Positions 2,822 to 63,032 of a stretch of DNA of 64,000 nt are shown here, one piece after another; within the stretch, counting starts at the first letter, position 1, and each line of letters opens with the position of its first letter. Under the pieces are notes generated by a model. The model was not told the DNA's origin. It was given only the letters and a program-made list of their open reading frames with translations, and did not search any database. The stretch lies in the NCBI GenBank assembly GCA_965112155.1, contig OZ218115.1; one strand, given 5' to 3'. Source of the DNA: Podarcis liolepis. Lineage: Eukaryota. The translations under genes and the position numbers were made by a program.

Positions 2822-3429
2822 CAGTGCTTTTTTCCTTTTAAAAAAATGTTTAGGGGTACTCTCATTTCCCGTTGTTGTTTAGTCATTTAGTCGTGTCCGA
2901 CTCTTCATGACTCCATGGACCAGAGCACGCCAGGCACTTCTGTCTTCCACTGCCTCCTGCAGTTTGGTCAAACTTATGCTGGTAGCTTCGAGAACACTAT
3001 CCAACCATCTCATCCTCTGTCGTCCCCTTCTCCTTGTGCCCTCCATCTTTCCCAACATCAGGGTCGTTTCCAGGGAGTCTTCTCTTCTCATCAGGTGGCC
3101 AAAGTATTGGAGCCTCAGCTTCAGGATCTGTCCTTCCAGTGAGCACTCAGGGCTGATTTCCTTCAGAATGGAGAGGTTTGATCTTCTTGCAGTCCATGGG
3201 ACTCTCAAGAGTCTCCTCCAGCACCATAATTCAAAAGCATCAGTTCTTCGGCAATCAGCCTTCTTTATGGTCCATCTTTCACCTCCATACATCACTACTG
3301 GGAAAACATCACTTCCATACTCATTTCCCTACTCATATTGAAATACTGCCCCTCAATGAGACCAAACTTAGATTAACAAAATGTTTAGGCGTATGCGTAC
3401 TCCTGCGTCCCCCCAGAAAAAAAGCACTG
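2822..3429. mobile_element. Non-autonomous hAT MITE interrupted by a BovB fragment
   Basis: TIRs CAGTGCTTTTTT / AAAAAAGCACTG; 8-bp TSD CTTAAGTG (2814-2821) vs CTTAAGTA (3430-3437). Confidence 0.8.
2871..3319 (-). mobile_element. 5'-truncated BovB (RTE-clade LINE) 3' end
   Basis: ORF 2879-3295 gives the BovB C-terminus (DAFELWCWRRLLRVPWTARRSN...LKLRLQYFGHLMRR); (CAA)n tail; 10-bp TSD CTCATTTCCC at 2861-2870 and 3320-3329. Confidence 0.93.
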
Positions 3430-10053: not shown

Positions 10054-13000
10054 TATTGATACAAATTGAGAAATATGTACTATGATTCAGTGGAAATAGA
10101 AATGTAGAGTTGTAGAATTGTAGAGTTAGAAGGGACCCAACCCTCTGCAATGCAGGAATGCAAAGTCCCTGACAGATGGCTGTCCATCATCTACTTAAAA
10201 ACCTCCAATGAAGGAGATTGCATCTCACCATAGCAGGGAAGCCTATGACCAGGTAACCTGTGTACCTTCTGCTGCCTGGGTACTGATTGTTGATCAGCGG
10301 CTTCAAAGCCCACTGTTCTCCTTTCTTTTGTTCTTCCATCTTTCATTTGGGCTTAGGTCAGATAGCCTTTCAAATAGAGCAGTGGTTAGGGATTATGGGA
10401 GTCGTAGTCCACAAAATAGTGAGGATCCCATGCTTGGCTACCCCTGAAATAGAGGGTCACCCTCTGTAAAGTAGGACACATGGCCACTCTAGAAGGAGGC
10501 CAAGGTGAGGGTCCAGTATGTGCAGGAAGGCAGTCAATGCCAGGTAAATGTGGAAGAAACAGGCAGTTGAACTGGTGAGATCAGTGGAGTTGAGAAGAAA
10601 TCTGTAGGGCGCACAATAAGTACTGTGGCTTGTTTTGATGAGTCCAGTAGAGGAACAGTGACTCCAATGAGTTTGGTTCCAGCTCAGATTCAGGACCAAG
10701 TCTCTTCTGCCAACAGGTCTTGAGGAAAGGCTGTTTTAAGCAATAGGCTCACTTTGCGTGCTACTACAGAACTCTGGCCACAAACAGGAGCTGCAAGATG
10801 TCCAGCCGGACTATCAAGAATAATTTGCTTTTCTGCATTTGTTTCAGTATTAGTATCCTCCACAACCCTTTGGGCAAATATTTCCTTTTCTTCTTATTAT
10901 CACCCCAAAGGAATGGTCCTCCTCCTCCTCCATGGACTCCATGATCTCTGCTGAAGACAGGATGGTTTTTAACTTTGAACCAGAGATGCTCCTGTTCTTA
11001 TGTTCTCATCCCTTTAATACCTTCTTGTCTTCGATTCCCAAGACCTTCCTCTCTTCCATTTCCTCTGCTTCCTCATTTTCAGGTTGAAAAGATTACATGG
11101 GAGCCTGAATACTGAAATCATAATAAAAGCGGTCGCCAAGTTAATTGTAGAGAAAAACACTTTGTGCATTCTGAATATAGAATTAGGACTCTCTACATCT
11201 CCTTTAAAAAAAAATAATCACAGCCACTGGGCTATGCTTCTTTGTCATTGGCTGCTCCCATTTCTTCCCTCTGTCTAACGCAGAGGGAATCCCTAAGAGA
11301 ATGCTGTCTAGGACAATGTGGCAACTTGACCTTGGTGGATTTCTCTTTTCTCTGTTTAAAGCGCTCTCCAGAGGGTGGGGAGAGGGCTTGCACATATTGT
11401 AGTTGGCAGGGAACTCAAGCAGAACATACTCATTGACATGGATATCATTAAGGCCTGTGGGAGTTTGATCCGCTTGGTCTCAGATCATCAGAGATGCATG
11501 GAGTTTCCTCTGCAGGAAAGGATGTGGAAGTGCTAAGCCTGAGGCTGCGATGCTGTGGAACTGGGAGAAAACTGGAGCAGGGGATAAGATGCAACCCATT
11601 CCCCAACCTGCAAAGCATTGGTGACGATAAAGCGTTGCTCCGTTTCAGAATAGGGGTGGAGGAGAAATCCAAGGGCATTAGTATAAACTGGAAGAGGCAG
11701 GAAGAGCAGCAGAAACATGCCCAGTATTTGGCCTTATATGAAACTAAGAGTTGATTTGGAGTGGGGATCCTTCAAGCTTTCTAACTTTGAAAGTAGATTT
11801 TTAAATCAGAAAAGTCAGTAAAAGAAACAGGAGAAATCCCAAAGTCAAACAACAGTCTTTTCCACCTGCTTTTCCTGTTTCTCAGTGCATTATTGTATAA
11901 GCCCACCATGGGTGATGGTGACTGCAGAGGTTTGAAGTGATGCATTGCAGGTGAACTGGAAGAGGATAAAGCTCAAAAGTAAACAAAGTTGTAGAAGCGC
12001 TTAAAGGACACATTTTGATGTAAAGAGTAATGTGCCCTTCAGAGGCAGCTCTGAATCTATCAGCATAAAAAGACACATTGCTCTTCTTTCCATTTCAATC
12101 TCCTCACTCCTTGTTATTGGCTCAAGAGAAACATCTGCTTGAAAAGTTAAAATTTGGCTAAACGTTTTATGGTGCTCCAAAGGTAGCAACATATGCTGAA
12201 CTGGCATGTAAGACATGAGACATCCTTTTCATTTTTGGCTTATCTTAGAAAGGGCACCTGTTTCCTTTTTCTTTGAATTTGCTTTTCAAGGCCCTTCCCC
12301 TTAATTTGTTCTCTTCCCCATTGTCAAAGCATTTGCGTAGGAACGAAGACCTTTTTCTCTTTTCCTTTCTATCCCTCTCTTTTCCTTTTGAAGCAAGTTC
12401 TTTAATCTTGAGTAAAACTTTGCTTTCGTGTGTGCTTAGGATTTCAGTCATATTCTTATCCTTACTGAGCTTCCAGATAAGGCATGATCTAGTCTCCTTC
12501 CAGATAAACATTTGCATGGAGATGTTCAGTTGCACTGTTGTTACATGCTGCCTTGTCTAGTTGATGAAAATTGACAATAAACAAAATCCTTCTGCCTTAA
12601 TCCAGAATTCTTGTACCTTAAATGGCACTGATGTGCAGTTCTGTTGAGCTGGTCTGAGCTTTGTACTTCCCAGTTTAAAAATGAAAGCTCTTGGCAAAAA
12701 ACATTTTCAGAAAGTCATCTTTTTCCTGACTGTTGCATCCCCCACCTTCCCCACGTGTGTTGGAATACTAGTAAAAAAGAGACTTCATTGCTCTAGCAGG
12801 GTGTTAAGTATTAAGTTGTGGGTGAACATATCAGACGACACAGCGATTCTCCAAACAACTCTTGTTTATTCATAGGTCAGAACAGAACTGAACTGAAGGG
12901 TTCAGCCAGCCTGCTTATATAGAGCTCCAGTACAACGTAACTGTAACAACTTTCTGTAGCTATCCAATCACTGAACGTCACTTTCAATCCCTTATTTGCA

Positions 13001-13299
13001 TATGTGGACCTGAACTATCTACAGCAGTGTTTCCCAACCTTTTTTGGGCAAAGGCACACTTGTTTCATGAAAAAAATCTCGAGGCACACCACCATTACAG
13101 CCCCGTGACGTCAGCGCGCAGCGTCACGCCGGGAGGGACATGAATTGCTAGCAAATTACATAATCACCTCCTTGAGGGCTGGCTCATCTTCTCTGAAGGC
13201 AGAACCCCATTAATTAACAGCACAGACTCACACCATAGCCAAGACGAGGGGGGAAAACCTCAGTCATGCACAGTCATGCACATGTGGGGGCTAAATGAG

Positions 13300-14318
13300 G
13301 ACGAAGACCGGGCAGAGAGCAGGGTTCAAATCACCCCACCTGGCCAGGACAATCCCTGGGTGCTCCCTTGGGCCACTCGCCTGACCCACCTCGCAGGGCT
13401 GTTGTTGCGAGGATAACACGGGGAGAACCACGCGCGCCCCCGGGAACTCCTTGGAGGAGAAAGCGGGCGATGAATGCAATGCACGAAATATATGAGAGGC
13501 GACCAGGTTTTGCAGGTGAGGGGCCCCCGCCAGCCTCCGCTTCCAACACCCGGCGCAACGACGCCGAAGTTTCCCCCCGGGCTCGGCTCGGGGAGCAGCG
13601 CTGCTCCCCCCCACGGCTCCCCTTCGCCCTCCCGGCTCTCTCTGCCGCCCACTGGGGACCCCCCTCACCTGCCAAGTCCGGAGCGCCGGTGGAAGTTGCA
13701 TGCATGCATGCAGGGCGCCGCGTTGCCATTGCATTGCACTGCACTCCATGCAACGCCTGCACGCATGCATTGCCTTGCACGCCCGCCAAGGGGTCTCCCC
13801 GCGGTCCGATGCGTCCCCTCCGGCGTGGATGCAGCATTGCAAAAATAAAAAACCCCCGACGCAGCCCTACCTGGGGGGCAGCCTCCGCCTCCGCCGCTCC
13901 GCCTCCGCGGGGATCCCCGGGCTCCATCCTGCCGCCCGATCTCCGCGGGGGCGCAGGCAGGCTGCGTGGGGTCTGCGCGGAAGAGCCCCTGCCCGCCCGG
14001 CCGCCGCCGCTGCGCTCATTCCATGGCCGGGAGAAGAGCGCTTCAAACAAAACGCCCGTCCCGCCAGGCCACGCTGGGAAACGTAGTTTGCGCACCCCGT
14101 GCGGGCGCGGAGCCCAAGGGCGAGGGGACTACGGATCCCGGCAGCCCCCGCGCCGGGGACGGAGGGGGAGAGGCCGGGTGCAGGGATGGAGGGACGGGTG
14201 AGCGAGCGAGTGAGTGAGTGGCAGCCACCAAGCCTTGGCCGAGAGCCAGGAAGGGCCTCCCCGGAGGAGGAGGAGGAGGGAGGCGCAGAGCGGGAAGGAG
14301 GGAGGGAACCCCAGGGGT
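13300..14318. promoter_or_regulatory. CpG-island-like, promoter-like segment carried inside the hAT element
   Basis: Very high GC and CpG density against AT-rich flanks; two divergent ZNF143/SBS-like motifs (ACTACGTTTCCCAGCGTGGCC on minus, 14067-14088; ACTACGGATCCCGGCAGCCCCCGC on plus, from 14128); TGCGCA at 14089; GC-box-like sequence. Confidence 0.6.
13871..13927 (-). pseudogene. Putative captured first coding exon (MEPGDPRGGGAAEAEAAPQ) followed by a splice donor
   Basis: Strong Kozak AGGATGG, 19 codons, then CAG|GTAGGG donor; ~140 bp downstream of a ZNF143-like motif. Parent gene not identified. Confidence 0.45.
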
Positions 14319-14901
14319 CATCTAGTGACGGCACCCCAATCGAAAATTTGACTTTTTTAAAAAGAAAAAAATCTTTCGAATTTTTTAATTTTTCCCGCGG
14401 CACACCAGGCAACATCTCGCGGCACACTAGTGTGCCGCGGAACAGTGGTTGGGAAACACTGATCTACAGTATCCCCCTGCTGGCCCAGGGTGAGAACTTC
14501 AGTACATAACACAGGGAAAGTTAATTGTTTGGAGACGTGTATATTTTACAAGGACGAATGCATGGAAGTTTTATAAACACAGTGCATAATAATAAAATAA
14601 CAAAAGCAATACATCATGTGGCAATCAATCAGGACACAGGTTGGAAAGACTGACTCACCGAAATGTCTGAATAACGAAAAGGGGTTGACCAGTGTAGTCA
14701 TTCTATATCAGCACAAAAAAGGTGCAGTTAAGTGGAAGGAGCAGCATGGCATTAGTGGAAGACTGGCAGCTCACACACTGAGCACCCACTGGGAAGTAGG
14801 GGAGGAAGCTTCTGTGCTCAGCACCATTGGTAGGAGCTGCATAGCTTCCACATATAGGGCTGGCATGGCAAAGATAAAAAGGCAAAGTAGATTGGTAGGA
14901 A

Positions 14902-48246: not shown

Positions 48247-48659
48247 ATTGCGCGGACAGGCGGAGTCCCCAGATCCTGCACGGCCCCCCCTGTCATGTGG
48301 AATAACGACTCAAGACAACGTGCTATGGGATTAAATTGGCCACAACTTTATTAAATTTCAAATGTGGGTAGACCTTGGCTCAGGCATTGGGCGTTCTCCC
48401 TCCCTGGTCCCCCGCCGGGGACCTAGGGAGCATCAGGGTTATCCAGTGTGTGTGTGGGGGATGGGCCGGCTCTGGAGAACATATGTTCAAGCAGAGATGG
48501 CCGCCCCCGTAACGCCGCCGCCGCAGGAGAGAGCAATGACGACCTTTCGGTGTACGGCCAAAGCCTCCCTTCAGAAAACCCCTTTAATGGGGAACCCTGG
48601 TATCGCCGCCGCAAGAGGAAGATGGACAAAAGGATTCCGCCCAAGGCCTGATACCGCCA
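48247..48659 (-). repeat. Split direct repeat B2 (413 bp)
   Basis: No difference seen by eye against 49107-49519 (offset 860); minus-strand AATAAA at 48347-48352. Confidence 0.95.
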
Positions 48660-48843
48660 AAGTTGTGACGTTTTGCTACGGGAAAGGCGAAACCTGCCAA
48701 TGCAGGGAAATTCCTTTCCGGCCCTTTAACAGCGACCTTAACGTAGCAGCGCCCGCATACCTGTGAAGAAACGTTAACCTGCAAAACCTGTGAAGAAAAG
48801 TTAACCTGCAAAATAAGACATTAACTGAGGGTGGGTAGGGTGG

Positions 48844-49109
48844 GAGAAGCTCTGGAGCCAAGTGAGGATTCCTAGGTAAGATCCTCCCTCTATTGTGTGG
48901 GCAGGTAATCCCTCCCCTACCTGGCCTGGTCTCCTTGGCAACGCTTCCCCCAGGTGGGATTGGACAACTGACTGAGGTAGGCGGAGACCTCCAGGTATCC
49001 CACCTGAGGGAAGGCAAAGCCAAGCCTATGCTGTTGGGGCGCTCCAGATCTAGGGGCTGCACGCGCCCGCGCAAAGGGCGCCCCCCGTTTTAAGTGGGGA
49101 GCGGTCATT
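48844..49109 (-). repeat. Split direct repeat A2 (266-bp shared part)
   Basis: No difference seen by eye against 53125-53390 (offset 4281). Confidence 0.95.
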
Positions 49110-49519
49110 GCGCGGACAGGCGGAGTCCCCAGATCCTGCACGGCCCCCCCTGTCATGTGGAATAACGACTCAAGACAACGTGCTATGGGATTAAATTGGC
49201 CACAACTTTATTAAATTTCAAATGTGGGTAGACCTTGGCTCAGGCATTGGGCGTTCTCCCTCCCTGGTCCCCCGCCGGGGACCTAGGGAGCATCAGGGTT
49301 ATCCAGTGTGTGTGTGGGGGATGGGCCGGCTCTGGAGAACATATGTTCAAGCAGAGATGGCCGCCCCCGTAACGCCGCCGCCGCAGGAGAGAGCAATGAC
49401 GACCTTTCGGTGTACGGCCAAAGCCTCCCTTCAGAAAACCCCTTTAATGGGGAACCCTGGTATCGCCGCCGCAAGAGGAAGATGGACAAAAGGATTCCGC
49501 CCAAGGCCTGATACCGCCA
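49107..49519 (-). repeat. Split direct repeat B1 with polyadenylation signal
   Basis: Copy of B2; minus-strand AATAAA at 49207-49212. Confidence 0.95.
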
Positions 49520-49559
49520 CCCGAGACCGCAAAGATTGCGGTCTCGCCGCCAAGACTAC

Positions 49560-50157
49560 CTACATCTGAAAAACGCCTTTGCCATCCTCCAACCAGTCCA
49601 TCAGGCCATGCCTGATGTCGCTTAGCCAACGCTCATTGCCAAGGTCCGATAGGTGCACGCCATCCGGCCGAAATAGCTCCTGCATGTAAACTTTAATGTT
49701 GGGGTGTTTCACGACCCGACCTCCCATGCGAGTGGTTGCAGAGCGCACTGCCCTATTGATTTTTTTCCACAGTGTAATTGAGTCTAGTGGGTTTGATGTT
49801 GCCACGCCAATGCAAGCGTGGTAAAAGTTCGGACCAGAAAATCGTGATACTGGGGTGAGTGGCGTGTACGCTTTCCAGGTCTGCGATCGCTGTTTTGATC
49901 AGAATTATGCTTTTTTGCACGACCAAGTCATTTTCGCCGAGGTGGAGCACAACCGCGCTTGGCGGGTGGCGGAACGCAAGTTCGTGACGCAACCGAGGGA
50001 GCAGGGCATCCCACCGCATTCCACGTTGTCCGAACCAGGTAATGGAGATCTTTGGCTGCAGACCCAGATGTTCACCGCCTGGACCAGCAATGGCGTGGAT
50101 GGCCGCCCAATGCACTATTCTGTGGCCGAAGATCCACACATGTTTGGGGGTTGAGTC
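49560..50157 (-). pseudogene. SGNH/GDSL-type hydrolase (esterase) ORF of the Ngaro element, frameshifted in this copy
   Basis: Block I-like WIFGH(R)IV with R at the usual Ser position, block II G (GQRGMRW), block III LHLGENDL, block V DGVHLS; split over ORFs 49753-50139 and 49560-49805, probably at an A7 run near 49760-49766. Confidence 0.82.
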
Positions 50158-50169
50158 TGAAAGAAAGGA

Positions 50170-51078
50170 TTATATGGTATCTGTCAGTGCCTGCTGGTTG
50201 TGTCTAATGTAGCCTTTGAAGGCAGCTGAACGCCACCGCCCCATTGTTTTTATGTGTTCGGCCGGGAGGCCGCTCGCAGCTGCCGTGGTTGCTGCACCAA
50301 TGCGAAAAGAATGCCCGGAAAATTGTGCCGGGTCGCCTCCACAGGCATGTATGGCCTTACGCAATATTGAGACAAATTGGCAACGGGTCATGGGGCGGCC
50401 TGATGCATGAATGAGGAGGGGGCCTGGTCCCGGAGGGCGTACCTTCAGGAATTTTCGTGTGTCCGCGACGGGGCATGGTCCAGTGTGTGGGGAGGAGGCT
50501 AGACTTAGCGTGGAACCCCTGCCCAGTTGATCGGTTTTGGAGCTTCGGATTTTGACCTGTATCATGTGCTTGTCAAGGTTGATATCAGCCACAGACAAGC
50601 CCCTGCGATGAGGTGACAGTGTGCCCCCAACGCACTCTCCGATACGGAGCGCACCAAAGAAGGCCAGGGAGAAGGCCGCCCTGAAGAGCCTAACCTCATA
50701 GTTGGACCAGCAAATGCTGGGGAGCGCATCCCATATCGTCTGGAGGATCTCAATGGTTACTGGCCTCCTCTTATCTGGAATGGGCGGGTGGGAGCGACGC
50801 CACCCTGCAATAAGCTTCCTTACGTGGAAAGTGTTACAGGGGTCTGGGAACCAAAAACAGTTGCTGAAGTATGAGATAGCGGCCTTGTGCAGGCTGATGG
50901 TCTTAAGGGCCATGCCTCTACGCTTTAGGTGAACCAAATATTTTAGAACATCATGCTCCTTAGCAGCACGTCTGCGTCGTAAACCAAACTTATCTCTGAA
51001 CCCCTCGAATTGGGACCATGCTCTGGTAGAGGACTGCAATGTTGATGGTGCAAGGGCGCTCAGTACTCCTGCTGTCAC
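50170..51078 (-). CDS. Tyrosine recombinase (YR) of the Ngaro element
   Basis: Catalytic residues in FFGALRIGE (R), SKTDQ (K), GHSFRIGAAT (HxxR), MGRWRSAAFKGYIR (W, Y); frame stays open upstream of the GTG to at least 51165. Confidence 0.93.
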   Translation of the reverse strand: MTAGVLSALAPSTLQSSTRAWSQFEGFRDKFGLRRRRAAKEHDVLKYLVHLKRRGMALKTISLHKAAISYFSNCFWFPDPCNTFHVRKLIAGWRRSHPPIPDKRRPVTIEILQTIWDALPSICWSNYEVRLFRAAFSLAFFGALRIGECVGGTLSPHRRGLSVADINLDKHMIQVKIRSSKTDQLGRGSTLSLASSPHTGPCPVADTRKFLKVRPPGPGPLLIHASGRPMTRCQFVSILRKAIHACGGDPAQFSGHSFRIGAATTAAASGLPAEHIKTMGRWRSAAFKGYIRHNQQALTDTI

Positions 51079-52697
51079 TTCTCTCGTCCAAGTTCCCAGA
51101 GGTCCTCCGGAAAGGCTTCTGGGAGTTGATCGGCCTCGGGTGCTAGGTCGCGAAAACGCTCCATCTGAAAGCGAGACAGGGCATCTGCAATGTCGTTATT
51201 GAGGCCGGGGATGAACCGCGCGGAAAAGGAGATGTTACCTTTCAGACATTCCAGCACGAAGAGGCGGAGCACGCGAATTACCCTGTTGGATTTTGCAGAT
51301 TGCTTCGCGATGATTCTTACCACCGCCTGGTTGTCCGACCAGAAGCACACCCTGGTGTCCTTGAGGAGGTGCCCCCAAACCCGGAGAGCCACTAGGATTG
51401 GGAAGAACTCAAGAAAAGTTAAATCGCGTGTAATGCCCTCCGCGTGCCAAGCTGTCGGCCACGGCTGCGCACACCAGTGACCCCTGAAGTAGACACCAAA
51501 GCCAAAGCGACCAGAGGCATCGGAGTGCACCTGTAGCTGTTCCTTAGGCAGCAGCCAATCTTGCCAAAAGGACACCCCATTGTAACTTTCCAGGAAGGTC
51601 AGCCATATTTTGAGGTCCTCCCTTATGGTGTGTGTGACCCTAATGTGGTGATGGGGGGCACCACCGCCAGCCGTGAGGCGGGCTAGGCGTGCGCAAAAGG
51701 CGCGACCGGGCGAGATAACCCTGCATGCAAAATTGAGGTGTCCTAGGAGTGTCTGGACCTGACGCAATGTGGTCTTCTTCTGGGCCATCATGGTAGTTAT
51801 CAATTCCCGCAGCGTGGCGAGTTTGGCCGGGGGCAGGCGAGAGGTTTGACTGACAGAATCCAGTTCAATACCCAGATATGAGATGACAGTGGTTGGACCT
51901 TCGGTCTTGTCTGCTGCCAGTGGAATGCCTAGTTCAGCCGCCAGCTGAATGAAGCATGCCAGCGCCCTAGCGCATGCGTCTGAGCCCGCTGGCTGCACGA
52001 AAAAGTAGTCATCCAGGTAATGGGAAATGCAGTGGGACCCCGACCTGCGTTTCATGGCCCATTCCACGAATGTGCTGAAGGTTTCAAATGCAGCGCATGC
52101 GATGGAACAGCCCATGGGCATAGCTTTGTCAAAGTACCATTGGTCCTGGAATTTGAAACCTAGCAACCAGAAGTCCCTGGGGTGGACTGGTAACAGACGG
52201 AAGGCTGATTCGATGTCACATTTTGCCATGAGTGCGCCCGGGCCACACTCCCTAACCAGCCTGATTGCCTGATCAAGAGATGCATATTTGACTGAGCATT
52301 GTTCTTCGGGAATGGCATCATTTACTGACCCACCCTTTGGGTAAGAAAGGTTATGTATTAATCGAAACTCGGCTGGTGCCTTCTTAGGGACAATACCCAG
52401 TGGGGACACTATGAGGTTAGGAAATGGAGGTTCTGTGAAGGGACCTGCCACTCGCCCCAGCAAGCATTCTTTGGTGATCTTCTTCTCGGCAATGTGTGGC
52501 ATATCTCGGACAGACTTTTGGTTGGGAGGATTGGTGCATGAGGGGGTGCCTACCACTGGGATGCGGAAACCTTCCTTAAAACCCTCCTCAATGTATTTTG
52601 CTGCCTCTTTATTGGGGTACTGGTGTAACAATGGCAGCATTGCTGATAGAGATATGGGTGAGGGGGCTAGGGAAAGGAGAGCACTATTTGCGGGCAT
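51075..52697 (-). CDS. Reverse transcriptase-RNase H of the Ngaro element
   Basis: SPLGIVPKK, KCDIESAFRLLP, MPMG, YLDD; RNase H motifs SDASG, FLEFFP, SDNQAVV, NDIADALSR; uninterrupted 540 aa. Confidence 0.96.
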   Translation of the reverse strand: MPANSALLSLAPSPISLSAMLPLLHQYPNKEAAKYIEEGFKEGFRIPVVGTPSCTNPPNQKSVRDMPHIAEKKITKECLLGRVAGPFTEPPFPNLIVSPLGIVPKKAPAEFRLIHNLSYPKGGSVNDAIPEEQCSVKYASLDQAIRLVRECGPGALMAKCDIESAFRLLPVHPRDFWLLGFKFQDQWYFDKAMPMGCSIACAAFETFSTFVEWAMKRRSGSHCISHYLDDYFFVQPAGSDACARALACFIQLAAELGIPLAADKTEGPTTVISYLGIELDSVSQTSRLPPAKLATLRELITTMMAQKKTTLRQVQTLLGHLNFACRVISPGRAFCARLARLTAGGGAPHHHIRVTHTIREDLKIWLTFLESYNGVSFWQDWLLPKEQLQVHSDASGRFGFGVYFRGHWCAQPWPTAWHAEGITRDLTFLEFFPILVALRVWGHLLKDTRVCFWSDNQAVVRIIAKQSAKSNRVIRVLRLFVLECLKGNISFSARFIPGLNNDIADALSRFQMERFRDLAPEADQLPEAFPEDLWELGREK

Positions 52698-53124
52698 TGT
52701 TCTTGCTTTGCTGAGCGCCAGAGGGGCCTGTAGAGGCTCCGGCCTCTCTTTTGTCTTGAGATGTGCCTGCGCCTGATCCGCGGGGGCCTCGAAAAAGCTT
52801 CTTCCCCCGAAAACATTTCATGGTGGGGTGAGATCCACCACAGCGCTCGCATTCATGAGCAAAGCGACATTTTTCTCTGAGGCAGGAGCCGTTGTTATAC
52901 TCCCAGCAAGATCTCTTGGGGGCCTTGGATTGATATTTGGACTGTTTCACATTGTCGGGCCCTTTCTTGAAGAACGGGGCAACCAACTCAGACCACACAT
53001 CATCATCTTTGATATCCCATCTAACTGTGTCGTCCTCTGCCGCCCGTTCCCTGAATGCCTGGTCATAGGCGAGTGCCGCCTCCCCCCCAGACATGGCTTC
53101 AGCCTTTAGGATGATGAGTAGGTA
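52684..53124 (-). CDS. gag-like ORF1, C-terminal part only (probably 5'-deleted)
   Basis: YDQAFRERAA...WDIKDDDVW motif and tandem zinc fingers CWEYNNGSCLREKCRFAH / CERCGGSHPTMKC. The in-frame upstream portion up to 53355 is just repeat A1. Confidence 0.8.
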   Translation of the reverse strand, partial: YLLIILKAEAMSGGEAALAYDQAFRERAAEDDTVRWDIKDDDVWSELVAPFFKKGPDNVKQSKYQSKAPKRSCWEYNNGSCLREKCRFAHECERCGGSHPTMKCFRGKKLFRGPRGSGAGTSQDKREAGASTGPSGAQQSKNNARK

Positions 53125-53390
53125 GAGAAGCTCTGGAGCCAAGTGAGGATTCCTAGGTAAGATCCTCCCTCTATTGTGTGGGCAGGTAATCCCTCCCCTA
53201 CCTGGCCTGGTCTCCTTGGCAACGCTTCCCCCAGGTGGGATTGGACAACTGACTGAGGTAGGCGGAGACCTCCAGGTATCCCACCTGAGGGAAGGCAAAG
53301 CCAAGCCTATGCTGTTGGGGCGCTCCAGATCTAGGGGCTGCACGCGCCCGCGCAAAGGGCGCCCCCCGTTTTAAGTGGGGAGCGGTCATT
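53125..53390 (-). repeat. Split direct repeat A1 (5' terminus of the element)
   Basis: Copy of 48844-49109. Confidence 0.95.
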
Positions 53391-53648: not shown

Positions 53649-53776
53649 TTATCCCCCCAGGGGTTGGCATTTGCAGGGCTGGGGCGGGGGTACTGTCTTT
53701 GAAATTACTCTCCATTCCTCTGACATGGCCAGACTTCTTTCTCTGCTGCTGCTTCTCAGCTGATTTCTGTATCCTG

Positions 53777-53889
53777 TAACAGTGTTCGGTTCTCTATTTA
53801 TTTATTTACTTGTTTGTTTGTTATTATATATAATATAATAACAAACAAACAAATTCACAAGTAAATAAATAGAGAACCAAACACTGTTA
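53777..53889. repeat. AT-rich fold-back inverted repeat (~55-bp arms, ~3-nt loop)
   Basis: TAACAGTGTTCGGTTCTCTATTTATTTA...TTGTTTGTTATTATAT pairs with ATATAATAACAAACAA...TAAATAAATAGAGAACCAAACACTGTTA. Confidence 0.85.
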
Positions 53890-54093
53890 TTACAGAACCC
53901 TATTTTTTGTAAAGTTAATTATTATTTCCATTTTATAATGTACATAAAGCAGAGAGAACGATTCTAACAATGGACAAAAATTGAAATATGAAACACAAAA
54001 CTATAAAATAGGCATTTAGAATGAGTAGTTGCACATGAGTTAAAATAATAGAGTTCAAGTCATGAAGTTATCAGGTCATCAAATATAGTTCCA

Positions 54094-54870
54094 GAAGTAC
54101 TGTTTCGGGGCGGGAAGGTGGGGGGGACTCCCCGAATGGAGTAATTGTGCCCCTAAAGGACCAGGTGTGCAGCTTGGGAGTCATTTTGGACTCACAGATG
54201 TCCATGGTGGCACAGGTCAGTTTTGTGTCTGGGACAGCTGTCTACCAGCTCCATCTGGTATGCTGGCTGAGACTCTACCTGCCTGCGCATTGTCTCACCA
54301 GAGTGGTGCATGCTCTGGTTATCTCCTGCTGGGACTGCTGCAATGCGCTCTGTGTGAAGGTGACCCAGAAACTACAACTAATCCAGAATGCAGCAGGTAG
54401 ACTGGTGACTGGGAGTGGCCACCAAGGCCACATAACACCGGTCTTGAAAGACCTACATTGGCTCCAAGTACGTTTCCGAGCACAATTCAAAGTGTTGATG
54501 CTGACCTTTAAAGCCCTAAACTGCCTTGGCCCAGTATACCTGAAGGAGCATCTCCACCCCCATTGTTCAACCTGGGCACTGAGGTCCAGCTCTGATGGCC
54601 TTCAGGTGGTTCCCTTACTTTGAGAAGTGAAGTTACAGGGAAGCAGGCAGAGGACCTTCTTGGTAGTGGCTCCTGCCCTGTGGAAAGCCCTCCCATCAGA
54701 TGTCAAGGAAATAAACAACTATACAACTTTTAGAAGACATCTGAAGGCAGCCCTGTTCAGGGAAGTTTTTAGTGTGTGCTGTTGCATTGTGCTTTTATAT
54801 TAATTATGCTGGGACCTGCCCTGGTTGCCTGCAGTAACCCAGTCAGCAGCATATAAAATTATTATTATTA
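54094..54870 (+). mobile_element. L2-clade LINE 3' fragment
   Basis: ORF 54147-54623: SLGVILDSQMSM...LQLIQNAAGRLVTG...HITPVLKDLHWL. Confidence 0.88.
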
Positions 54871-61532: not shown

Positions 61533-62070
61533 GTTGTTGTTGTTGTTGTTGTTTAGTCGTTTAGTCGTGTCTGACTCTTTGTGACCCCATGGACCAGAGC
61601 ACGCCAGGCACTCCTGTCTTCCACTGCCTCCCGCAGTTTGGTCAAACTCATGCTGGTAGCTTCGAGAACACTATCCAACCATCTTGTCCTCTGTCGTCCG
61701 CGTCTCCTTGTGCCCTCCATCTTTCCCAACATCAGGGTCTTTTCCAGGGAGTCTTCTCTTCTCATGAGGTGGCCAAAGTATTGGAGCCTCAGCTTCACGA
61801 TCTGTCCTTCCAGTGCACACTCAGGGCTGATTTCCTTAAGAATGGATAGGTTTGATCTTCTTGCAGTCCATGGGACTCTCAAGAGTCTCCTCCAGCACCA
61901 TAATTCAAAAGCATCAATTCTTCGGCGATCAGCCTTCTTTATGGTCCAGCTCTCACTTCCATATGTCACTACTGGAAAAACTATAGTTTTAACTATACGG
62001 ACCTTTGTTGGCAAGGTGATGTCTCTGCTTTTTAGGATGCTGTCTAGGTTTGTCATTGCTTTCCTCTCAT
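61533..62070 (-). mobile_element. 5'-truncated BovB LINE
   Basis: ORF 61553-62056: MTNLDSILKSRDITLPTKVRIVK...DAFELWCWRRLLRVPWTARRSN; (CAA)n tail; 10-bp TSD ACTATCTCAT at 61523-61532 and 62071-62080. Confidence 0.94.
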
Positions 62071-63032
62071 ACTATCTCATACTTTATGTTAAACATACTG
62101 TAAAGGTAAATTGGAGGTTATAGGCCACCTTTAGTTCCTGTAGAAAGAATAAACAAATGAAATGTTCATCTCGTGCTGTAAGCAACTTCATGATGGTGAA
62201 GGTGAGAGTAGATACGCTAAGAAAAAAAGAGGTAGCCAAGCTAGTCTTAGCATGAGATGATCAAAGAAACAGTGGAAATAGTTGCTGAAAGCATTGGTGC
62301 AGGGAGAAGAATTACTTTTGTGTAATGGAATTGCAGTGCAAGCATAGCCAAAAAAAAGCCGGAACAACCTGGCAGACGTTTTGCAGAGAACATGGGCTTA
62401 ATTTCCCTTTTCCTCCATATCCTTTTTTATAAAAGAAGAATCTGTCTCTTGAATCTGCCTAAATATGACTAAGAAGACATTTCTGTGGAATAACCTTTCT
62501 AGAAGTAACAAAGCGTGATCTTCCTTAATTTGTTGATCCGAGTCTGCTCTCCCAATTAGTGTTTTAATTGCTGGCTTGAAACATTAATATCATTCAGAAA
62601 ATTCCACCATGGCACTTTGCCCCCAAGGTTTTCCGGGGAGAAAGGCATTACATTTAATTTATCTTTTCAAAAACAATTAGTTGTTTTGGAAACCTCAGTT
62701 GCACGCAAAGATTTCAAAGTGAGGTGCAGTCTGTAGAAAGTAGTGAGTTCATATGAATTGTCAAATTACTTTCATTTTTTGTATTCATGAGAAAGGACGG
62801 GGGCATTTTCATGCCTGTGAAATAATTATGACAATCCACATGACGTGGTTTTTTTCCTTTCAAACATGATTTCATCCTTCCATTGAGAAGGTTTGGCTGG
62901 GATTATCTCCATTTGACAAGAAGGGGTGGTACTGCTCCCTGTCACCATTGCTACCTTACTGGAGCACTCCCGAAACAGGAACAGGCACAGTGCTTCCCAA
63001 ACAATGGTGGGCAGGAAGTTGAAGAAGAAGAA

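What the first reader, a model, noticed from the sequence alone, without database searches (positions are those of the whole stretch)
48247..53390. Young Ngaro-type YR retrotransposon with a readable recombination signature
Seen: A1...B1-A2-spacer-B2 architecture with repeat pairs that look identical, plus intact RT/RH and YR frames. The trinucleotide ATT occurs at the left end (48247-48249), the internal B1/A2 junction (49107-49109) and the right end (53388-53390). Known: Ngaro/PAT elements are thought to form a circle whose junction is templated by the internal B1/A2 join and to integrate by YR-mediated recombination without a classical TSD. Inferred: the crossover core is ATT (AAT on the element strand), the empty site is ...AAATTACT-ATT-TTCAGATC..., and the family was recently active in this lizard.
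Basis: partly seen in the sequence, partly recalled or inferred. Interest (0 to 1): 0.7.

Follow-up and report, generated by a model that had tools for sequence, protein, structure and literature searches.

The report
Lizard Ngaro retrotransposon, one-strand insertion footprints
This is a young, partly deleted copy of a known kind of jumping gene (Ngaro) in a lizard; hundreds of sister copies show that it joins the chromosome at one exact point rather than across a shared three-letter match, and they suggest that it likely inserts as a folded single DNA strand, which makes an old open question about these elements testable.

Summary
The architecture is real: split direct repeats of 266 and 413 bp, each pair 100% identical, open RT/RNase H and YR frames, and ATT at three junctions. 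The predicted empty site appears in 4 of 4 public runs. This copy lacks about 3.1-3.2 kb, including most of gag, so it is non-autonomous. ATT is not the family's core: left ends read ATT 88, TTT 82, GTT 5, CTT 1 of 176, while right ends always start with the element's own base. The exceptions map a point crossover at N^TT, and a second Ngaro clade in the genome repeats this (31 copies). The A|B junction folds into a conserved hairpin with the crossover at its stem edge, and a G-quadruplex motif marks the inner edge of A. Most copies are 860-bp solos. 31 of 114 right ends are one-ended A-only pieces, 8 with target duplications starting at the crossover. No permuted copies were found. Best reading (inferred): one-strand, integron-like transfer finished by host repair. 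Rival: a double-stranded circle plus later rearrangement. The scan proposed the hairpin idea earlier on another genome (e1-9809039).

The parts
48247..53390 (-). Ngaro element, internally deleted (non-autonomous) young copy
53125..53390 (-). Repeat A1 (266 bp); right crossover point 53388^53389
53124..53125 (.). Deletion junction: 3.1-3.2 kb absent relative to longer copies; ends exactly at the inner edge of A; unique in the genome
52684..53124 (-). C-terminal remnant of the gag-like ORF1 with a Cys/His-rich motif
   Evidence: no Pfam hit; gag label rests on position, as in PMC9210276
51075..52817 (-). RT/RNase H frame, 580 aa stop to stop, no room for a methyltransferase domain
50170..51195 (-). 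Tyrosine recombinase frame, Cre-like fold
49560..50169 (-). SGNH/GDSL hydrolase-like frame, split by a frameshift near 49760 in this copy
   Evidence: Lipase_GDSL_2 E 6e-7 on an unsplit copy, under the curated cut-off
49522..49546 (.). 11-bp perfect inverted repeat at the inner edge of B1 (role untested)
   Evidence: read directly
49107..49519 (-). Repeat B1 (413 bp); AATAAA on the coding strand at 49207-49212; inner edge ends in ACCGCCA on the + strand
49067..49115 (-). Junction hairpin: arms 49067-49074 and 49108-49115; internal A|B junction with the point equivalent to the crossover at 49107^49108
48844..49109 (-). Repeat A2 (266 bp)
48829..48844 (+). G-quadruplex motif at the spacer|A2 edge, the only such motif in the element
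48660..48843 (-). Spacer between A2 and B2 (184 bp, holds a 27-bp tandem duplication)
48247..48659 (-). Repeat B2 (413 bp); left crossover point 48247^48248; AATAAA on the coding strand at 48347-48352

Best explanation
This is a recently inserted, gag-deleted Ngaro retrotransposon whose family joins target DNA at a single point (N^TT in a YWTTVY-like target), and it likely does so by tyrosine-recombinase transfer of one folded DNA strand, finished by host repair. Shown: the element contributes the base before TT at the right end and the TT at the left end; the target keeps its own bases on both sides. Inferred steps: (1) the transcript ends at the AATAAA about 95 nt inside B2 and is reverse transcribed; (2) coding-sense second-strand synthesis over B1-A2 halts at the G-quadruplex on the spacer|A2 edge, giving a B-A 'strong-stop' piece; (3) its junction folds into an attC-like hairpin that YR cuts at AA^N on the coding strand; (4) one strand is swapped with the target, and replication or repair completes the event. 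Correct pairing of the strong-stop piece with both cDNA ends would give full copies; other pairings would give solos (B-spacer-A), spacerless copies, internal-to-A deletions such as this window's, and A-only pieces.
For: Point crossover: at right ends the middle base is A in 12 of about 346 counted; at left ends in 0 of 460 (Fisher p 3.5e-5). Background T>A in the same context is 4 of 2196. Second clade (RT about 62% identical): left base T12/G10/A8/C1 with TT in 31 of 31; right base equals the element's in 31 of 31, then TT 23, AT 6, CT 2 (p 0.005). No reciprocal heteroduplex products: element bases GGTC precede 0 of 176 left ends, and GCG follows 3 of 178 right ends, about chance. Hairpin: mean z -3.8 on the coding strand, which is the more stable strand in 27 of 30 distinct junctions; an A-T to G-C compensatory pair, 105 versus 26 of 175 copies, with few mixed forms. 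One-ended pieces: A-only 31 of 114 right ends versus B-only 4 of 68 left ends (p 3.5e-4); 23 of 30 start at A2-A25; 8 of 31 carry 8-89-bp duplications starting exactly at W^TT, against 1 of 69 solos. G4 motif at the spacer|A edge in 28 of 31 second-clade copies and in this family. Internal-to-A deletions cluster in A1-A40 although A1 has no adjacent G4 (6 of about 15 events, my hand tally; test). Permuted copies: 0 of 19 and 0 of 40 second-clade regions. DIRS-1 cDNA is linear and single-stranded, and YR specificity was untested (PMC7192593).
Against: All evidence is genomic footprints; no intermediate or enzyme activity was seen. The YR is closer to Cre (Z 22.1, rmsd 3.4, 275 aligned) than to the integron integrase (Z 18.8, rmsd 3.0, 251 aligned), so the protein gives no special support. 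The coding-strand hairpin could work as RNA. Within the second clade covariation is nil (+0.29; one pair with 3 compensated and 5 broken sequences), and a 101-nt fold of the window junction was not significant (z -0.73). A G4 and a 5'-region palindrome (3 further breakpoints) could also break integrated copies later. 23 of 31 A-only pieces have no duplication, two of the 8 duplications are only 8-9 bp, and one A-only piece is just the terminal motif. Seven left ends read ACT; I read these as later T>C changes, but their rate is above background (p 0.012). A pairs were more identical than B pairs in this family (0 versus 12 mismatches), but not clearly so in the second clade.
Confidence: 0.55

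Rival explanations
1. Standard model with later decay. A double-stranded circle integrates by YR at N^TT. Solos and spacerless copies arise afterwards by recombination between A1/A2 or B1/B2, and A-only pieces arise by breaks at the G4, some repaired from the empty homologue.
For: Solo AB repeats were read this way in Cafeteria (PMC8547959). Both recombination products exist: 12 of 30 loci with internal sequence start with a single B, and 8 of 40 second-clade regions are spacerless. Break-triggered annealing would favour A-A because the gap is longer (inference). Deletions that end next to a G4 are known in other systems (recalled, no call).
Against: It predicts permuted integrants from the second, equal junction (0 of 19; 0 of 40). 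It predicts heteroduplex segregation over a 6-8-bp overlap (not seen). It does not explain deletions ending in A1-A40 where no G4 is adjacent. Short G4-only deletions are scarce: 4 of 116 solo-length copies lack all or half of the tract, against 31 A-only pieces.
Confidence: 0.3
2. Point crossover on a double-stranded or cruciform junction. The inverted arms are YR binding sites or an RNA template-switch signal; both strands are exchanged with a very short overlap or strongly biased repair, and the cis-made junction is preferred.
For: Cre-like fold. The outer stem CGCAA/TTGCG is nearly invariant, as expected of a protein binding site. The target's TTVY resembles the element's TTGC arm.
Against: The arms lie about 30 nt apart with variable loops, not the usual 6-8 (recalled for Cre/Xer). 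The inner stems differ wholly between clades yet both pair. The one-ended pieces with duplications need a further cause.
Confidence: 0.12
3. One reading: a 3-bp ATT core shared by element and target is required.
For: True at this locus and at 88 of 176 left ends; it is the published trinucleotide model (PMC7192593, PMC3266345).
Against: 88 of 176 left ends are not ATT; empty sites of TTT copies read TTT; the second clade has a TTT junction with G or A at 18 of 31 left ends.
Confidence: 0.03

Closest known systems
Ngaro retrotransposons with SGNH hydrolase (Xenopus DIRS-53_XT type; PMC9210276, passages read)
   Same: A1-ORFs-B1-A2-B2 split direct repeats, gag/RT-RH/YR/SGNH order, no methyltransferase
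   Different: 184-bp spacer between A2 and B2; this copy is gag-deleted; no crossover map, hairpin, G4 or one-ended pieces in the passages read
Cafeteria Ngaro solo AB repeats (PMC8547959) and SIRE of VIPER (PMC6681497), passages read
   Same: Isolated A-(spacer)-B units and ORF1-deleted copies
   Different: There the origin is left open or put down to recombination; here solos dominate (69 of 114 right ends) and come with A-only pieces
DIRS1-like elements (PMC3266345 section 10; PMC7192593 section 26)
   Same: NTT termini; in their Table 3, 6 of 28 elements differ between start and end at the middle base only, the same asymmetry as here; linear single-stranded cDNA
   Different: Inverted repeats plus ICR and a methyltransferase; NTT reads on the coding strand there and on the opposite strand here
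Integron attC x attI recombination (PMC4792948, passages read)
   Same: Folded single strand, cut after AA at a stem edge, one strand exchange with replicative resolution
   Different: The enzyme is Cre-like; the partner is any YWTTVY-like chromosomal site; the likeness is in mechanism only and is inferred

Membership tests
Ngaro | Split direct repeats A1-[ORFs]-B1-A2-B2, internal repeats downstream of YR | tested here: met
Ngaro | RT/RNase H and tyrosine recombinase on the same strand, no DDE integrase | tested here: met
Ngaro | No methyltransferase domain | tested here: met
   No Dam hit on any frame; the RT frame ends about 35 aa after the last RNase H motif
Ngaro | Optional SGNH hydrolase ORF after YR | tested here: met
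   Lipase_GDSL_2 E 6e-7 on an unsplit copy, just under the cut-off; split in the window copy
Ngaro | RT groups with Ngaro references, apart from DIRS1/PAT | not testable with these tools
   No labelled references could be fetched; a Dam-family search of the genome for DIRS1-like anchors found none
DIRS1-like | Inverted terminal repeats with ICR, and a methyltransferase | tested here: not met
   No terminal inverted repeat among the 25 longest of 26 pairs listed; no MT
PAT-like | Split direct repeats plus methyltransferase | tested here: not met
   Repeats present, MT absent; MT-less PAT derivatives exist (PMC4157794)
Integron integrase / attC system | Integrase with the integron-specific insertion | tested here: inconclusive
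   Collinear with Cre by sequence; Cre ranks first and IntI second by fold; the insertion was not inspected residue by residue
Integron integrase / attC system | Folded single-stranded site cut at a stem edge, one strand exchanged | tested here: inconclusive
   The geometry and footprints fit; cleavage cannot be tested here

The most novel reading that the evidence does not exclude
Ngaro retrotransposons integrate as integron cassettes do. A G-quadruplex-terminated B-A strong-stop DNA folds into an attC-like hairpin, the YR swaps one strand at N^TT, and solos (SIRE-like), spacerless copies, internal deletions and A-only pieces with long target duplications are all by-products made at integration. 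The middle-base asymmetry in published DIRS1 termini suggests that the rule holds across the order.
Probability: 0.45. Interest if true: 0.85.

Novelty: new member of a known kind. Interest (0 to 1): 0.62.

Why it matters
The element itself is an ordinary young Ngaro. Its value is the copy population. The specificity and substrate of DIRS-order recombinases were untested in the paper read (PMC7192593), and the origin of solo A-B units is stated to be open (PMC6681497). The data give an exact cut point, a target motif, a candidate folded substrate and a predicted intermediate, each testable with oligonucleotides and one protein. If true, a eukaryotic retrotransposon has converged on the single-strand route of integrons. 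The textbook rules of an identical trinucleotide and no target duplication would need amending.

Tried and rejected
The deletion as a spliced intron: no GT-AG at the junction. The deletion as a subfamily: 1 match in the genome. ATT as a required core: rejected. An RT tree against DIRS1: no anchor found. Paralogous empty sites for the 18 right-end exception loci: none found; one A-only copy, L170, keeps its AAT target in a short duplication. Paralogue tests of non-duplicated A-only flanks: uninformative. Covariation inside the second clade: no signal. The solo-to-spacerless ratio as a discriminator: rejected, because break-triggered annealing predicts a similar bias. A hint of heterozygosity in run X15 (joint depth 60 against flank 111, contig break at 48249) was not confirmed. 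The ACCGCCA edge of B looks like a tRNA-type primer site (recalled motif); not tested. NCBIfam gave only weak Xer-type hits. Two papers on the original Ngaro and kangaroo models were not held, so prior description of these termini cannot be excluded. Paper searches listed none that, by title or abstract start, describes an Ngaro hairpin, G4 or one-ended pieces; one search returned 0 papers. No supplements were read.
Full report
Observation. The window holds a 5,144-bp element on the minus strand. Repeat B (413 bp) lies at 48247-48659 and 49107-49519, and repeat A (266 bp) at 48844-49109 and 53125-53390; both pairs are identical, and a 184-bp spacer separates A2 and B2. RT/RNase H (51075-52817) and YR (50170-51195) frames are open and hit RVT_1 and Phage_integrase. 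The YR model (pLDDT 93) matches Cre best (Z 22.1), then the integron integrase and XerA (Z 18.8, 18.7). A fourth frame is SGNH-like and is split by a frameshift near 49760 in this copy. There is no methyltransferase. By the structural criteria in PMC4157794 and PMC9210276 (passages) this is a Ngaro element. The best named RT relatives are from lacertid lizards (84% identity).

The copy is not complete. Two longer copies (8.2-8.4 kb) carry 3.1-3.2 kb between 53124 and 53125, with the 5' region and most of a 553-555-aa gag-like frame. The junction occurs once in the genome and ends exactly at the inner edge of A. Of 23 long regions examined, 3 keep four full-length frames, and 14 belong to a subfamily with shared deletions and broken frames; the 10 of these with both repeat pairs show 0-1 mismatches per pair, so defective copies were mobilised in trans (inference). 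Over 4,018 bp the window copy is 99.6-99.7% identical to its nearest copies.

Empty site.

The core is not ATT. Among distinct outer ends in the loci fetched (exception-picked loci left out), left ends read ATT 88, TTT 82, GTT 5, CTT 1 of 176, and right ends ATT 174, AAT 2, ATA 1, ATC 1 of 178. Empty sites of TTT-left copies read TTT: tandem paralogues of L012 and L022, and orthologous contigs of L005 in runs X1 and X4, 2 of the 4 laid. Genome-wide pattern counts locate the exchange. The middle base of right ends deviates 16 times (12 A, 4 C) and the third base twice. The middle base of left ends deviates 7 times, always to C. A at the middle position, 12 of about 346 versus 0 of 460, gives p 3.5e-5 (the denominators omit about a fifth of ends), against a T>A background of 4 of 2196. 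So base 1 comes from the target on the left and from the element on the right, and base 2 the other way round: a point crossover N^TT. The target prefers YWTTVY; a pyrimidine stands two places after the core in 166 of 178. Element bases do not spill into the flanks (GGTC before 0 of 176; GCG after 3 of 178), so no 6-8-bp heteroduplex segregates.

Replication in a second clade. A search with a relative 62% identical in RT found many other young copies. Of 40 regions fetched, 31 gave clear repeat pairs, 8 were spacerless and 1 was standard but partly masked by a tandem array. Their junction base is T (30) or C (1). Left ends are N^TT with N = T12, G10, A8, C1; right ends carry the element's base in 31 of 31, then TT 23, AT 6, CT 2 (p 0.005). 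Table 3 of PMC3266345 (section read) lists 6 of 28 DIRS1-like elements whose end differs from their start at the middle base only, which hints at the same rule.

Conserved signals. The A|B junction folds into a hairpin in both clades: the B start pairs with an arm about 30 nt inside A, and the crossover sits at the stem edge beside an internal loop. The mean z is -3.5 on the + strand and -3.8 on the coding strand, which is more stable in 27 of 30 distinct junctions. In this family an A-T pair (105 of 175 copies) became G-C (26 copies), with few mixed forms. Inner stems differ in sequence between clades. Against this, covariation within the second clade is nil and a longer fold of the window junction was not significant. 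On the coding strand the cut falls at AA^N in the 5' arm, which resembles the attC bottom-strand cut between A and C of AAC (PMC4792948, passages). A four-tract G-quadruplex motif lies at the spacer|A edge in this family and in 28 of 31 second-clade copies. ACCGCCA ends B in 31 of 31, and AATAAA lies 88-101 nt inside B in 31 of 31.

Copy population. Of 114 pattern-picked right ends, 69 are solos (B-spacer-A, about 860 bp), 31 are A-only, 8 are B-to-A deletions and 6 have internal sequence; of 68 left ends, 4 are B-only (p 3.5e-4). These are samples of 328-plus and 460-plus matches, mostly from the first contigs. 23 of 30 A-only pieces start at A2-A25. Eight of the 31 have a duplication of 8-89 bp that begins exactly at W^TT, against 1 of 69 solos; six are 18 bp or longer. 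Deletions from the internal region into A also cluster at A1-A40 (hand tally 6 of about 15, tested), though A1 has no G4 beside it; the window's own deletion is one of them. All 19 internal junctions of this family are preceded by the spacer, and no second-clade region is permuted.

Mechanism. Shown: the point crossover, the target motif, the asymmetry of one-ended pieces, the absence of permuted copies, and the conserved motifs. Inferred: coding-sense second-strand synthesis over B1-A2 stops at the G4; this B-A piece bridges the two cDNA ends, so only the new junction is single-stranded and folds; YR transfers one strand; repair completes it. Other pairings would give solos and spacerless copies, and a free 3' end near the inner edge of A would give internal deletions and A-only pieces with duplications. 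This fits the linear single-stranded cDNA of DIRS-1 (PMC7192593, passages and section 26). I give it 0.55. The main rival (0.3) keeps a double-stranded circle and puts solos and A-only pieces down to later recombination and G4 breaks; it fits the solos well but not the missing permuted copies or the A1-edge deletions.

What is known. Solo AB units and ORF1-deleted copies are reported in Cafeteria (PMC8547959, passages), and SIRE equals A2+B2 of VIPER with its origin left open (PMC6681497, passages). PMC3783388, PMC4350176 and bioRxiv 2025.10.17.683159 (passages) added nothing on termini. Searches (listings only) showed no paper on an Ngaro hairpin, G4 or one-ended pieces, but two key papers were not held and no supplements were read. 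I reached that reading before seeing it, and it is not independent support.

Verdict. Interest 0.62.

Noticed in passing
window 53772-53894: Near-perfect AT-rich palindrome (46-nt arms) about 380 bp right of the element; possibly a small foldback element.
   Followed up: no
window 13000-14600: CpG island (GC 0.61, CpG observed/expected 0.78), probably a host promoter; its longest frame has no Pfam hit.
   Followed up: partly
window 54066-54623, 61553-62123, 2883-3341: Frames that look like LINE RT tails (recalled likeness; the two scanned had no relevant Pfam hit); 54086-54300 is very high-copy in all four runs.
   Followed up: partly
L324-L393: A second, larger Ngaro clade: 1843 RT candidates, 81 scored, most without stops; many young subfamilies.
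   Followed up: partly
L207-L220: Non-autonomous 7-8 kb subfamily with shared RT and gag deletions and, in most copies, a tandem expansion in the SGNH frame, yet near-identical repeat pairs.
   Followed up: partly
L118, L135, L273: Three breakpoints fall at a 16-bp palindrome about 280 nt inside the 5' region, a second stop or break site.
   Followed up: partly
L012, L022, L023: Insertions into tandem satellite arrays on small contigs; neighbouring units give the pre-insertion site directly.
   Followed up: yes
G000: No Dam-type methyltransferase hit in the genome, so DIRS1-like elements may be scarce here; the search is a lower bound.
   Followed up: no
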